64,000 nt of DNA, taken from the IMG/VR virus record IMGVR_UViG_2537562172_000006; one strand, 5' to 3'. The position numbers are program-made. The first letter of the stretch is position 1. Each line of letters begins with the position of its first letter. Of this stretch, positions 59,501-64,000 are shown one piece after another. Origin of the DNA: a virus. Lineage: Duplodnaviria > Heunggongvirae > Uroviricota > Caudoviricetes.

Positions 59501-62500
59501 GATACGCCTGTTTCAAAACACGCGATAACACGTCTCCTAATTTTTCTCCCTGAAATCCAGTACCGCTAAATCTCACAGGAGAACCATCTTCTTTTTTTCT
59601 ATAAACGGGGTTAACAACCAGATTCAACGTCTGGTTGGTGCCAATCCAGTTAGCATAAGCCATATAGACTTCACCATAGATAATCTCTCCCTGTTGATCT
59701 GGATTAGCCAAAGGAAGTCCAGAAGCAAAGCCAGCAGTTAAGCTAACAATGCATCCGTTGAGATTTACACTTTGCTGTAACATCTCAATAGGTAAGCCAT
59801 AAATTGTCAGCATCGTTCCGGAACCAACAACATCCAGGCCGGTTACTTCAAAGTCAAATTCAACATGCAACCCACATCCTGGTGTTTCACTGGTATCAAA
59901 AGGCCCAATGGGGTTCCCATTGCTATCCACTGGCGGCTTACCAGTTTTAGGGTTAATAATTTCCAGTCGGTAATAACGCATTAGTAAACCTCGAACTGAT
60001 TAGTACTTTCACGAAAAATGAGCTTTCCCGGAGCAAATGGAAGTGCCAGATTGATGTCGTAACCATCAGGGGAAGCAATCAGAGGCGTGTATACAATGAC
60101 CTCACCAGAACTGTTTTTCAGTTCCAGATAATAGCGATTCGCATACAGATTGAACGGAACACGGGCAAATAAAATTTCCCCTCCCATCCTGAATTTAAAT
60201 TTGAAAGGTTTTTCCCCATCAGGTTTGAATGGTATAAAAGTATTCATACTCCAGACTCCTGCACAATTTGATTCTTGATACCTGACAATGATTGCCACTA
60301 AATTATTTAGTGGCATGATTCACTCACTCTGTTTTTTCCAGTTGAGCCAGCCGCCCGGATATTTCTTCCAGTTTTTCCAGGGCTGGCTTGCAGGCCGCAT
60401 CAATAACTTCACGGACCATTCCGGCGAGCTGTTCTTCTTCTGTCGGCGTTGTTACTTCCACACCTGATGGTTTCCCGCCCTTATCCCATACGCCCAACGG
60501 TACGAGCGCAACGTGATCGATAAGAAATGGCGTACCCTCAATGAAAAAATTGTCCTCGCCCATTACATCAGGAACTTCTGCCCCACCGGACGCACCACAA
60601 AACACAACCGACGGGCTGGTGGATACCTCCCCCCGTGCTTTCTGGATGTAATCGATGATTTCCTGCCCGTAAATCCGGCATACGCCCCACACCTCGTCAC
60701 CGCGAATATACGGCAACATAACGGTGCCAATAATGCGCGACCGTTCGCCCACGTCTTCAAGGGTTTTGCTTTCGGGATGGTCGATAATGACGGGTACTCC
60801 GGCGCAACGTTCCAGGAACTGCGGATTGAGATAAGTTTGCGGTGAACGCCAGACAAATTCTTTTTCTTCGGCGCGGTAGGCCATTCCGGTTCCTGTGATA
60901 CGCAGGTTAACCAGCCACATGTTGGAAAACTGATAAGGCGACGGTAGCTGTCCGTCCCGAATCTGCTTCGCCGCCTCAATTTCTGTTAAAAGCATAATGT
61001 TATCCGGTTATAAGCAATAAGCCCCGCCAAATCCGGCAGGGCTGAAATCAGCACGTTTTTCATGCCCCCGAGAGGCTTGCAGTGTTAATTTTTACCAGGC
61101 GACGGGGAGGAATTTTGAAAGCACTAAGCCAGTTATTCGGATCCCCCTGATATTCAGTAATCCGGCGTCCGGCTTCATCCATTCTTACGGTTTTACGCAA
61201 ATAGCCCGGCGTATTTTCCACGGCCCACTGAACACTGTCTTTTGCAGCCTGGTAAATCTGATCTTCCAGCACCGCCAGCGTTGCAGAATCTGAAACGGAA
61301 CGAATATCCACATCACTGAATTTTTTAGCCAGCTTCTGTGCACCAATTAATGCACGCTTGCGGTAATCCATCGACTTTTCACCAGCAAACGGGGCTGGAG
61401 CGCGACGGCCCATACAACTGTATGCTGAATCCGCTTTGGCCTGGGCTTCTGCCAGTGAGGATTCATCTTCGACTGACGCGACGATGTTTTGATTCGCGTT
61501 GTCCTCATCTGCTTTTGTGAAATCCTGTGCGGGGATCGCATTCAGAATTTCGATAATCTCCTGCGGAGTGCTGCCCTGCGACTCTGACAGAGCGTTAACC
61601 ACCTCCATCAGTTTTAATCGCAAATCTTCTTTGCTTGCTGGCATTGTTACCACCTCTCTTTTTTCACCAAAAAATCACGACCATCAGGCCGGACGTTCTA
61701 CGGGATAAAGCGCCCGCTGCATTAAACGCCGGGCGACCTCATGAATGCTCGGAGCAATCCCCAGCGGAGAATTGCGGCGTTCCTCGTCCTGGATGCGCTG
61801 TAATGCTTCAATCTGATCACGAGCGAGTAAAACGGGTTTCACGCTGGCTTTTCTCATAGTCATATCTCCTGAACAAAACAATGATTATGATTGCACAAAC
61901 TGAAATGACGATCTACATCATTGCAATTTATGAAACAATAACGCATGATGATCGCGTTCTTCCCATTGACTTCAATCACCTGAAAAACAAAGCCCGCAAC
62001 ACTTCTGGCTGCGGGCTTTTTACTGGCACAAAAAAGCCGGGAAAAATCCCGGCCTCCGTCACTGACTGCAATTTTTCGATCCAGGGTATTTCCTGAATGC
62101 CTTACCATTGGGCTGATGTAATCCCATCCCGGCATGTGCCCGGCTGATGGTTTCGCGCATCTCCCCGAAATTATCCTGCCTTGCTGGTGGGCGTGCTGCC
62201 TTGCGGATACATTCCGCGCGACGTTTTGCCGCCTGTTCCCGTGCCTTGTCATCATTCGCCAGCATGATGACCTCAGCCCACCGCGCCGCCGCTCTCCGGT
62301 ACAGACCACGCGCTTCCAGTGCTTCCGCTTTGCTGTCGTGAATCATGCGCCTGTTTTCTCCTTTGCTACCCGGCGCTGACGTTTGCGCTTCTCATTCAGC
62401 GCCACCAGCCGCGTTTCTGCGTCCTGTTGTTCCTGTGGTGTCACCTCGCCGCACGGCTGGCCTTTCAGGTCGTAGCGTACCCCACCAGCCATTAAGGCGC

Positions 62501-64000
62501 GGTAATAGCGCGGACACTGTGCATAAGATGCCAGCGTCGCACGCAATGCCCCTGGACCGAATGCCAGCCCCCTGACGGCGAGATCCTGCATCAGGTCGTC
62601 GAATATCCCCACCTTAAGCGGCTTCGGTGCTTCCCGGCTGAATAATTCAGGCCACAACTCAGTGAGGCGGTTAATGCGCCTGCGGTTTTTGCGCTGGCGC
62701 TTGGTCATATGCCGCCACGGTGTCGCCCCTGTGGGCTTCTGCTGCGCTTTCTGGTTACCGGGCATCACTTTATGCGCCGACGTGGTTTTATCCTGCTCCT
62801 GTGCCGCCTGCGTCGTTTTCTGCGGCGTGCCATAAATGCCTTTCGGTTTTCTGTTAATGGTCAGCTTAGTCATGCTTTGCCCCATCGTTACAACTGTCTA
62901 CCAACTGTCTACCGATATAATTGATTGATTTATTTAATGTTATTAACTCATAACAAAAAAACAATCTGCAAACTGTCTACTAACTGTCTACCGCATTAAT
63001 ACATTGATAATTAATGATTTTTACTAAATGGTAGACAGTGTAGACAGTTAAAAGAGAAATTTAAAAAATGAACCCTTAACTATCTGTTTTTTTATATACC
63101 CCCCGTGGTTTAGGAATATAGAAATAACTGCCCACCTCTCTACCACATTAAAAATACCTATATAATTCAAAACATTAATTAGTAGATGGTTGGTAGAGGG
63201 TTAAGTGTATCTGTCTACCAACCGTCTACTTTTAAGTTTCAACTTATAAATTTCGTATCATGTTCTGTCGTTAATGCCTGCCGCTGCTGGTAACCATCCA
63301 TCAGCATCTTTATCTAACAGAACATTTGTGATCGTTCGCCCTTTATCTGGACCTTTAGTGCATTTAGCCCGCTTGTACTCCTTTCCGTACTCAGCCATTG
63401 CCCCTGGCATATCTGTACCAAAGCGTGTCAGTGATACCGGTTTTCCCAGACCATGCGCAGACATATAAGCCAAATAAGCATGATACAGATATCGCCTCGG
63501 GCTAAATGGCACTATTTCTGCATTACCTACTATCATCCCCTCACATTTAACCAACGACATCAGATAACCGCAGAAGTCCACCAGCGAATCACCTTCACGC
63601 TTTATTAACAGTGCTTCTTCTGATTTTTGCTGCTCATAAAGTAGTCTTTTCGCTTCGTCCTGGTCGGCAAATCGTGTAAGCAAATGGCGAATCACTACCG
63701 CCAGTTCGCCTTCTATTTTTTCCACCAGCATGGGATCGCGTTCGTTCTCCGGTACGACCTCAGAGAAATTAAATATCACCCTACGACGCGAGATCCCTCC
63801 ACTGCGATCACTGAATGACATGGCGTTATTGTTTACTGCCAGCACTACCGCCGGAATACGTGTGGAGTAGGGGGCTTTATGTTTCGGGTCGATTGCCACC
63901 TTGTCACCGCCTGTAATGGCCTTAATCCCAGCACCATCACCTGCGTAGCGGGTCATGTCAGGCATGATAATCAGAGAATATCCCACCACTAACGCTCGTT

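What the first reader, a model, noticed from the sequence alone, without database searches (positions are those of the whole stretch)
62343..62885. FinO/ProQ-like RNA chaperone encoded by the mobile element
The 180-aa protein has the PLKVGIFDDL-type ProQ/FinO motif flanked by basic tails. Such proteins on mobile elements can control element or host RNAs post-transcriptionally.
Basis: inference. Interest (0 to 1): 0.45.

Follow-up and report, generated by a model that had tools for sequence, protein, structure and literature searches.

The report
ProQ/FinO RNA-binding gene on phage satellite
The ORF is a real ProQ/FinO-family RNA-binding protein gene sitting just after the replication origin of a small phage-parasitic island (PICI) in an E. 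coli chromosome; databases already annotate it this way, and nobody has yet tested what RNA it binds.

Summary
The ORF lies on the minus strand at 62343-62885. Its conserved start is probably the ATG at 62873, giving 176 aa. It matches Pfam PF04352 (ProQ/FinO) at E=6e-24. Its predicted structure superposes on FinO, RocC, NMB1681 and ProQ structures. It keeps the 3'-nucleotide pocket residues (G93, Y127, R137) and R115, but the usual N-cap serine is a glycine. It is not an orthologue of FinO, ProQ or FopA (30-35% identity, core only). It has a ~57-aa disordered basic N-tail, a basic helix and a basic C-terminal helix (net charge +21).

The mobile element is an EcCICFT073-like PICI, bounded in the window by an att core at 55857. 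In 79 of 88 related loci the gene follows primase and ori, often with an SSB gene. In 57 of 88 it is followed directly by a PerC-family gene; in the window the two overlap by ATGA. Tandem terminators close this operon.

dN/dS of 0.07-0.3 shows purifying selection. About 22% of complete E. coli genomes carry the clade, always on the chromosome. RefSeq already names it "ProQ/FINO family protein", and papers from 2010 and 2026 mention it as island cargo. No RNA partner could be identified in silico. This is an ordinary family member with open biology.

The parts
62343..62873 (-). ProQ/FinO-family protein CDS, 176 aa from the conserved start. The longest ORF runs to 62885 (180 aa).
   Evidence: ORF list; Pfam PF04352 at E=6.2e-24; conserved MTKLTINRK start in 64 distinct homologous CDS; RefSeq homologues are 531 nt; dN/dS 0.07-0.3.
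62370..62687 (-). FinO domain (residues 67-172 of the 180-aa ORF). It includes the PLKVGI beta-turn (G93), the F-G-P-G-A-L-R helix cap (R115), Y127 and R137.
   Evidence: Pfam envelope; AF2 pLDDT about 88-96 across residues 61-170; Foldseek hits to 3mw6, 1dvo, 7rgt/7rgu and 6s10; alignments to ProQ, FinO and RocC.
62688..62873 (-). N-terminal extension. Residues 5 to about 58 are predicted disordered and basic, followed by the start of basic helix 62-77. The first ~20 residues are strongly conserved.
   Evidence: AF2 pLDDT below 50 for residues 14-54; pN/pS 0.12-0.19 for residues 5-24; charge count.
62059..62346 (-). PerC-family regulator gene. Its start codon overlaps the ProQ/FinO stop codon (ATGA), which suggests translational coupling.
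   Evidence: Pfam PF06069 at E=2.2e-32; coordinates; a PerC gene directly follows the ProQ-like gene in 57 of 88 related loci.
62030..62057 (-). Intrinsic terminator T1 just after the perC stop codon: GGCCGGGA-uuuu-UCCCGGCC stem, then U6.
   Evidence: Sequence; RNA fold; the same architecture follows PerC in EcCICFT073 with a different sequence.
61981..62019 (-). Intrinsic terminator T2. The stem AAAGCCCGC...GCGGGCUUU has A/U flanks, so it is bidirectional in form. It closes the proQ-perC transcription unit.
   Evidence: Terminator scan: 12 pairs, 7 of them GC; fold of the 101-nt 3'UTR gives -41.1 kcal/mol, z=-3.6.
62892..63229 (.). Replication origin of the island. It holds about 10 copies of the iteron CTGTCTAC/GTAGACAG, mostly in pairs 11 nt apart, flanking AT-rich DNA. 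The last pair ends 19 nt before the conserved start codon of the ProQ/FinO gene.
   Evidence: Repeat families D1-D5 and inverted pairs. The layout matches the published Gram-negative PICI origins: two iteron sets flanking an AT-rich region (PMC6092414).
63258..64000 (-). 3' part of the island's primase (pri-rep) gene, cut by the end of the window.
   Evidence: TIGR01613 P4-family primase C-terminal domain, Pox_D5, and phrog_864 at E=3e-66. The full-length 601-aa homologue is in L001.
55857..55882 (+). att core (AATTAACTACACCATTAACTACACCG). It marks the integrase-distal end of the island next to smrA.
   Evidence: In L001 the same 26-mer occurs twice, 11,443 bp apart, bracketing the island. There is a single exact copy in the window and none are expected by chance.

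Best explanation
The gene encodes a ProQ/FinO-domain RNA-binding protein that belongs to an EcCICFT073-like phage-inducible chromosomal island (PICI). It sits in a fixed slot: primase, then iteron origin, then an optional SSB gene, then ProQ/FinO, then PerC or another small gene, then a terminator, then the packaging/morphogenesis module. Shown here: family membership, the fold, a conserved pocket for an RNA 3' end, purifying selection, and the genomic slot. Inferred: the gene is expressed with the island's replication genes once the island is induced. Like FinO, FopA and RocC, the protein would clamp the base of an intrinsic-terminator hairpin and its 3' U-tail through G93, Y127, R137 and R115. 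Its basic N-terminal tail and flanking helices would help RNA-RNA pairing or shield the 3' end from exonucleases. The most likely clients are a few transcripts of the island itself. One candidate is the proQ-perC mRNA, which ends in two terminator hairpins. An antisense RNA not yet mapped is another. The effect would be to tune satellite replication or the switch to the late module. The identity of the RNA partner is unknown.
For: Family and fold:
- Pfam PF04352 at E=6.2e-24.
- PDB sequence hits to the ProQ N-terminal domain (6e-12), FinO (2e-10), NMB1681 and RocC.
- The AF2 model has a confident FinO core, and Foldseek matches RocC, including its terminator complex, with target TM-score up to 0.84.
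- The pocket residues equivalent to RocC G52, Y87, R97 and R75 are G93, Y127, R137 and R115. All are invariant or more than 90% conserved in the clade (residue roles from PMC9674577).

A functional gene:
- dN/dS is 0.07-0.3 against 51 distinct homologues.
- The disordered N-terminus is also constrained.

Context:
- In 79 of 88 loci a primase lies 2.1-3.5 kb upstream. Seven of the other nine are contigs cut short.
- An SSB gene lies directly upstream in about 41 loci.
- PerC lies directly downstream in 57 loci, and an 82-aa ORF followed by a capsid-forming-PICI head module in 20.
- The operon ends in strong terminators.

Precedent: the studied mobile-element FinO-domain proteins are specialists for their element's own antisense RNA. 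FinO acts on FinP/traJ and FopA on Inc/repZ (PMC9977716).
Against: - No RNA partner was found. Rfam detected no known family in the island, even at E<=1.
- Synonymous-site diversity along the CDS shows no suppressed block that would point to an overlapping antisense RNA.
- The tandem terminators after PerC also occur in EcCICFT073, which has no ProQ/FinO gene. They are therefore not a dedicated partner.
- The N-cap serine and lysine that contact the hairpin backbone in RocC are Gly and Pro in this clade, so hairpin recognition may differ.
- Related copies (64-67% identity) sit alone in large pathogenicity-type islands, away from any primase or origin. That argues against a strictly PICI-internal client.
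- RNA binding itself has not been tested.
Confidence: 0.5

Rival explanations
1. It is cargo aimed at the host. The protein would act as a broad, ProQ-like RNA binder that competes with or supplements chromosomal ProQ and rewires host sRNA/mRNA 3'-end networks. This could happen from the integrated island and might affect virulence or stress phenotypes together with PerC.
For: The minimal FinO domain can be a global binder, as in N. meningitidis ProQ (PMC7272453, listed). The clade is found in 1175 of 5426 complete E. coli genomes, with up to 9 copies per genome. It also occurs as a solitary gene in afa/pap pathogenicity-type islands. PICI papers class perC and proQ as accessory or virulence-associated genes (PMC13612085). 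The T2-type A/U-flanked terminators typical of ProQ ligands are generic in E. coli (PMC12001967).
Against: The gene lies inside the replication-to-packaging operon structure, not in the accessory end of the island where the STAND NTPase gene sits. No independent promoter was recognisable between the origin iterons and the start codon. PICI main operons are reported to be silent until AlpA is induced by a helper phage (PMC6092414).
Confidence: 0.25
2. It is directed at the helper phage. The protein would bind helper-phage transcripts or regulatory RNAs, either to sense or exploit the helper or to interfere with it.
For: PICIs commonly carry interference functions, and EcCICFT073 blocks lambda by a mechanism that was not found at first (PMC6092414). 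Some prominent ProQ ligands are phage-encoded sRNAs (PMC9977716). The same gene is carried by PICIs with very different packaging modules. It is therefore not tied to one morphogenesis strategy.
Against: There is no direct evidence. The helper phage of this island is unknown. Copies in non-PICI islands are hard to explain this way.
Confidence: 0.12
3. It has a replication-module function that is not RNA regulation. The protein would bind structured DNA, or the RNA primer or R-loop at the origin, and work with the SSB and primase.
For: The gene is immediately adjacent to the iteron origin. A true SSB gene frequently lies just upstream (Pfam SSB E=4e-16). In EcCICFT073 the slot holds an SSB-like gene with no FinO-like gene.
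Against: The conserved pocket recognises the 2' and 3' hydroxyls of a terminal ribonucleotide in RocC (PMC9674577). All characterised family members bind RNA. Solitary copies occur far from any origin.
Confidence: 0.08
4. It is a decaying, non-functional remnant.
For: Some copies are frameshifted or truncated, for example L010, L082, L083, L089 and L090.
Against: The window copy is intact. dN/dS is 0.07-0.3 across 51 homologues. Key residues are invariant.
Confidence: 0.02

Closest known systems
FinO of F-like plasmids (PDB 1dvo)
   Same: Both have a FinO domain flanked by a basic N-terminal region and a helix and by a C-terminal helix. Both are encoded by a mobile element. The pocket residues are shared. 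Sequence E=2e-10 and Foldseek E=4e-6 with 30% identity.
   Different: It is not an orthologue. The NCBIfam FinO model scores 64 bits against a cut-off of 136. The gene is chromosomal, on a PICI next to a primase and origin, not at the end of a tra operon. No FinP/traJ-like antisense pair was found. In 5426 E. coli genomes the clade is never on a plasmid.
ProQ of E. coli/Salmonella (N-terminal domain, PDB 5nb9)
   Same: This is the best sequence match among solved structures (E=6e-12), at about 32% identity. The PLK[IV]GIF motif is the same, as are R58, R69, Y70, R80 and D82 (here R115, R126, Y127, R137, D139).
   Different: The ProQ equivalog model scores 58 bits against a cut-off of 127. Only PF04352 is detected, so there is no linker or Tudor-like C-terminal domain. 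The protein instead has a 57-aa N-terminal tail. The N-cap Ser-Lys-Thr of ProQ is Gly-Pro-Gly here.
FopA (YafB) of IncI plasmid pCol1B9
   Same: Both are mobile-element FinO-domain proteins with an N-terminal extension. FopA aids an antisense RNA that controls the replication initiator, which is the nearest functional analogy for a gene placed beside a replication module (PMC9977716).
   Different: Identity is only 35% over 83 residues of the core, with hhalign probability 96%. The replicon type and neighbouring genes differ.
RocC of Legionella (PDB 7rgu, bound to the RocR terminator) and minimal ProQ NMB1681 (3mw6)
   Same: These are the best structural matches, with target TM-score 0.76-0.84. 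The 3'-nucleotide pocket is conserved.
   Different: Identity is 26-31%. RocC has a long C-terminal region and an unlinked chromosomal sRNA partner. NMB1681 has almost no extensions.
ProQ/FinO-like genes already noted in islands and satellites
   Same: These are the same kind of gene in the same kind of element. EAEC 042 ROD34 carries 'Ec042-2429 similar to proQ' next to the 'PerC-like Ec042-2430' (PMC2808357). An Enterobacter cloacae PICI carries a ProQ/FinO-like chaperone (PMC13612085). Vibrio satellite-plasmids carry a ProQ/FinO-like regulator (PMC13230959). RefSeq names the E. coli homologues 'ProQ/FINO family protein'.
   Different: All of these are annotations only. None reports RNA ligands or a phenotype.

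Membership tests
ProQ/FinO family (Pfam PF04352) | Significant match to the family profile above the curated threshold | tested here: met
   E=6.2e-24, 84.5 bits against a cut-off of 27, profile positions 4-108 of 109.
ProQ/FinO family (Pfam PF04352) | FinO-domain fold: a mostly helical core with a small beta-hairpin | tested here: met
   The AF2 model has helices 94-105, 111-122 and 125-133 and strands 136-138 and 144-147, with pLDDT about 88-96 across residues 61-170. The top 26 Foldseek PDB hits are all FinO-domain structures.
ProQ/FinO family (Pfam PF04352) | 3'-terminal-nucleotide pocket: the beta-turn Gly, the conserved Tyr and the conserved Arg (RocC G52, Y87, R97) | tested here: met
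   G93, Y127 and R137 align to these positions. Y127 and R137 are invariant and G93 is at least 90% conserved in 36 clade members. Residue roles come from PMC9674577.
ProQ/FinO family (Pfam PF04352) | Helix N-cap motif that binds the hairpin backbone (RocC S70-K71-S72-x-L-R75) | tested here: inconclusive
   The Arg is kept (R115), and the helix start is predicted at residue 111. The cap Ser, the Lys and the Ser/Thr are G110, P111 and G112 across the clade. Main-chain contacts may remain but side-chain contacts are lost.
ProQ/FinO family (Pfam PF04352) | Binds structured RNA (terminator hairpin plus 3' tail) in vitro or in vivo | not testable with these tools
   This needs EMSA, ITC or CLIP-seq.
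FinO proper (fertility inhibition protein) | Meets the NCBIfam FinO subfamily cut-off, and is encoded on an F-like plasmid acting on FinP/traJ | tested here: not met
   64 bits against a cut-off of 136. The gene is on a chromosomal island. None of the 1657 places found in E. coli genomes is on a plasmid.
ProQ proper (RNA chaperone ProQ equivalog) | Meets the equivalog cut-off, and has a linker plus a C-terminal Tudor-like domain | tested here: not met
   58.1 bits against a cut-off of 127. The only Pfam hit is PF04352, and the protein ends 8 residues after the domain match.
FopA (IncI plasmid FinO-domain protein) | Full-length similarity to FopA of pCol1B9 | tested here: not met
   35% identity over 83 aa of the core only. 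The N-terminal regions do not align.
Gram-negative PICI (the host element) | Discrete island flanked by att direct repeats, about 10-15 kb | tested here: met
   A 26-nt repeat brackets 11.4 kb in L001. One copy lies at window 55857-55882. The other end lies beyond the window.
Gram-negative PICI (the host element) | Integrase, AlpA regulator, and primase/replicase followed by an origin with two iteron sets around AT-rich DNA | tested here: met
   The primase 3' end and the iterons are in the window. The integrase and an AlpA 98% identical to EcCICFT073 AlpA are in the near-identical locus L001. The criteria come from PMC6092414.
Gram-negative PICI (the host element) | Induced, replicated and packaged only with a helper phage | not testable with these tools
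   This needs induction and transduction experiments.

The most novel reading that the evidence does not exclude
The satellite-borne FinO-domain protein could be the core of a dedicated RNA-level control layer in PICI biology. It might act at the tandem terminators that separate the replication/regulatory operon from the packaging module. It might assist an unmapped antisense RNA that sets satellite copy number, or it might capture helper-phage RNAs. That would make it the first RNA chaperone shown to act in phage-satellite conflict. Its conserved N-terminal peptide (MTKLTINRKPKGIYGT) could be a new partner-binding motif.
Probability: 0.2. Interest if true: 0.6.

Novelty: already known. Interest (0 to 1): 0.28.

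Why it matters
As an annotation this adds nothing new. RefSeq already names the gene, and it has been listed as island cargo since 2010. The useful result here is its precise placement. This is a distinct, chromosome-only clade of FinO-domain proteins. It is present in about a fifth of complete E. coli genomes. It occupies a fixed position after the origin of classical and capsid-forming PICIs and is often translationally coupled to a PerC-family regulator. That makes it a tractable test case for a general question: do mobile-element FinO-domain proteins act as specialists for their own element's RNAs, or do they reach into host or helper-phage RNA networks? No RNA chaperone has yet been tied to satellite-phage biology in the literature searched here.

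Tried and rejected
- **Known RNA partner.** Rfam at gathering thresholds on the window and two related loci, and at E<=1 on the whole island of L001, gave nothing relevant. The only hits were weak chance-level matches of the tandem terminators to terminator-like families.
- **Overlapping antisense RNA inside the gene.** Sliding-window synonymous diversity over 52 distinct CDS ranged from 0.11 to 0.34 with no suppressed block. Rejected as unsupported.
- **The perC 3'UTR terminators as a dedicated ligand.** The same two-hairpin layout follows PerC in EcCICFT073, which lacks the FinO-like gene. It is therefore not specific.
- **Orthology to FinO, ProQ or FopA.** Rejected on NCBIfam cut-offs and pairwise comparisons.
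- **A second copy in the window.** The other 180-aa ORF (32367-32909) is unrelated.
- **The small ORF after the terminators (61684-61881) as an equivalent of the small ORF at the same position in EcCICFT073.** No similarity was found, so it is not named.
- **Species-representative genome scan.** It returned only three loci (E. ruysiae, E. albertii, Serratia oryzae), which shows a narrow host range but gives little comparative power.
- **A clear sigma-70 promoter between the origin and the start codon.** None was convincing.
- **Literature searches for functional work on PICI-borne ProQ/FinO proteins.** They found only annotation-level mentions.
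Full report
**1. The observation**

The window contains an ORF at 62343..62885 on the minus strand. It is 180 aa and carries PLKVGIFDDL at residues 89-98. 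Both flanks are basic. The protein has net charge +21 and pI 10.6, concentrated in residues 5-77 and 151-180.

The real start is probably M5, the ATG at 62873. In 64 distinct homologous coding sequences the conserved N-terminus is MTKLTINRK, while whatever precedes it varies or is absent. RefSeq homologues are 531 nt. A G-rich Shine-Dalgarno-like run precedes this ATG. There is only one such gene in the window.

**2. Family identity**

Pfam PF04352 (ProQ/FinO) matches residues 67-172 at E=6.2e-24, 84.5 bits against a cut-off of 27. Four PHROG families of unknown function also match.

Among solved structures, the sequence hits are the E. coli ProQ N-terminal domain (6e-12), FinO (2e-10), NMB1681, RocC and Legionella Lpp1663.

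An AlphaFold model was built from 36 clade members:
- Residues 1 to about 58 are disordered.
- Residues 62-77 form a basic helix.
- Residues 78-150 form a confident FinO core.
- Residues 150-179 form a long basic C-terminal helix.

Foldseek against the PDB returns only FinO-domain structures among its 26 significant hits. Target-normalised TM-scores reach 0.84 for RocC, including the RocC-terminator complex.

The RocC/RocR structure paper (PMC9674577) defines two RNA-contact elements.
- **The 3'-terminal nucleotide pocket** (Gly52, Tyr87, Arg97). In this protein the equivalents are G93, Y127 and R137. Y127 and R137 are invariant and G93 is at least 90% conserved in the clade.
- **The helix N-cap** (Ser70-Lys71-Ser72-x-Leu-Arg75). 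The Arg is kept as R115, but the cap is Gly-Pro-Gly here. This is a clade-wide F-G-x-G-x-L-R motif.

I therefore score the N-cap feature as inconclusive.

**3. What it is not**

- The NCBIfam FinO model scores 64 bits against a cut-off of 136. The ProQ equivalog scores 58 bits against 127.
- There is no ProQ C-terminal domain.
- FopA of pCol1B9, fetched for comparison, shares 35% identity over 83 core residues only.
- Plasmid FinO proteins are below 40% identical.

The protein therefore represents a separate subfamily, roughly equidistant from FinO, ProQ, FopA and RocC.

**4. The mobile element**

Near-identical loci in complete E. coli genomes show the whole island (L001 is 99% identical over 61600-63300). 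The gene order is integrase, AlpA-type HTH, AntA/AntB antirepressor, Icd-like, DUF4222, primase, origin, ProQ/FINO, PerC, small ORFs, DUF2213 protein and further ORFs. The island lies between smrA and abgR.

- A 26-nt direct repeat brackets 11.4 kb in L001. One copy lies at window 55857-55882. The island therefore runs from 55857 past the window end, which cuts the primase gene.
- The AlpA of L001 is 98% identical to that of EcCICFT073, an experimentally verified PICI (PMC6092414). The integrases are 86% identical.
- The 372-bp spacer between the primase and the ProQ/FinO gene holds about ten CTGTCTAC iterons in pairs around AT-rich DNA. This is the published layout of PICI origins.

**5. A fixed slot**

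I tabulated neighbours in 88 loci that encode a clade member: 80 from IMG/VR plus genome loci.

| Neighbour | Position relative to the gene | Loci |
|---|---|---|
| Primase (several unrelated types) | 2.1-3.5 kb upstream | 79 of 88 |
| True SSB gene (Pfam E=4e-16) | directly upstream | about 41 |
| PerC-family gene | directly downstream | 57 |
| 82-aa ORF, then a capsid-forming-PICI head module (capsid, protease, portal, HNH, terminase) | downstream | 20 |
| PerC | upstream | 4 |

Of the nine loci without an upstream primase, seven are cut by contig ends.

In the window the proQ-like stop codon and the perC start codon overlap as ATGA. EcCICFT073 itself has an SSB-like gene and PerC in this slot but no FinO-like gene.

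More distant copies (64-67% identical) sit alone in large afa/pap pathogenicity-type islands.

The core DNA is found in 1175 of 5426 complete E. coli genomes, with up to nine copies per genome and never on a plasmid. In the species-representative genomes it was found only in E. ruysiae, E. albertii and Serratia oryzae.

**6. Is it functional?**

Against the window copy, dN/dS is 0.07-0.3 for 51 distinct homologues. The first ~20 residues of the predicted disordered tail are among the most constrained (pN/pS 0.12-0.19). The C-terminal tail is looser, at 0.5-0.7.

**7. Search for the RNA partner**

This search was unsuccessful.
- Rfam finds no known RNA in the island.
- Synonymous diversity shows no footprint of an overlapping antisense RNA.
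- The proQ-perC unit ends in two strong tandem terminators (z=-3.6). T2 has A-U pairs below its closing G-C pair, a feature of ProQ-type ligands (PMC12001967).
- The same two-hairpin layout follows PerC in EcCICFT073, which has no FinO-like gene. The cfPICI version has a single ordinary terminator.

These hairpins are plausible but non-specific clients.

**8. Mechanism**

Shown: a FinO-domain protein with an intact 3'-end pocket, under selection, placed with the replication and regulatory genes of a PICI.

Inferred by analogy with FinO, FopA, RocC and ProQ (PMC9977716, PMC9674577):
- It binds terminator hairpins with 3' U-tails.
- It either protects them or promotes pairing with a complementary RNA.
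- It acts when the island's main operon is switched on.

I give about 0.5 to the reading that its clients are mainly island transcripts and that it tunes the satellite life cycle. I give 0.25 to a host-directed cargo role, about 0.1 to helper-phage RNAs and less than 0.1 to a non-RNA replication role. Decay is excluded by the selection data.

**9. Novelty and verdict**

RefSeq already calls these proteins 'ProQ/FINO family protein'. Published mentions:
- The EAEC 042 genome paper of 2010 lists a proQ-like gene next to a PerC-like gene in an 8-kb island.
- A 2026 Enterobacter paper notes a ProQ/FinO-like chaperone in a PICI.
- Vibrio satellite-plasmids are reported to carry one as well.

I found no functional study. 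The finding is correct but ordinary at the level stated. The open question is what RNA the protein binds and what that does for the satellite.

Noticed in passing
window 62892-63229: About ten CTGTCTAC/GTAGACAG iterons, mostly in pairs 11 nt apart, flank AT-rich DNA between the primase and the ProQ/FinO gene. This is the probable replication origin of the island. The last pair ends 19 nt before the conserved start codon of the gene.
   Followed up: partly
window 61981-62057 (minus strand): Two tandem intrinsic terminators follow directly after perC (fold z=-3.6). T2 is bidirectional in form. EcCICFT073 has the same two-hairpin layout with a different sequence at L007 15230-15300.
   Followed up: partly
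window 61884-61960 (minus strand); L007 15330-15420: The promoter region of the next operon carries repeated TGCAAT(C)AT-like motifs, both here and in EcCICFT073. It may be an operator for PerC or another island regulator.
   Followed up: no
window 56476-57681 (minus strand): A 401-aa STAND-type NTPase (Pfam nSTAND1 E=2e-9, phrog_6841 E=1.5e-102, weak PADLOC PDC-S59 hit) lies at the integrase-distal end of the island. It is absent from the otherwise near-identical island in L001. It could be an anti-phage accessory gene.
   Followed up: partly
window 58410-61653 (minus strand): The island's late module is unusual for a PICI. It has a DUF2213 protein and a 197-aa protein that both match one 545-aa phage family (phrog_6216). 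It also has a 111-aa protein with a weak Pam3 plug-like hit, a 345-aa protein matching a 'baseplate hub' family (phrog_196, E=8e-37), and a 174-aa protein with a small-terminase-like N-terminal HTH.
   Followed up: partly
window 55857-55882: This is the 26-nt att core of the island, next to smrA. In L001 the same sequence is repeated 11.4 kb away beside the integrase.
   Followed up: yes
window 47897-48075, 52372-52489, 34456-34631, 8971-9055: Rfam gathering-level hits elsewhere in the window: the RalA antitoxin sRNA (Rac prophage end), FnrS, a sok antitoxin RNA and sRNA-Xcc1.
   Followed up: no
L009 8985-9509 and L010 8973-9481: More distant copies of the same FinO-like clade (64-67% aa identity) sit as solitary genes in large afa/pap pathogenicity-type islands, next to YfjI/YagK-type backbone genes. 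The L010 copy is frameshifted. About 800 complete E. coli genomes carry this more distant class.
   Followed up: partly
window 62826-62873 (residues 5-20 of the ORF): The N-terminal peptide MTKLTINRKPKGIYGT is predicted to be disordered, yet it is one of the most constrained parts of the protein (pN/pS about 0.12). It may be a short interaction motif.
   Followed up: no
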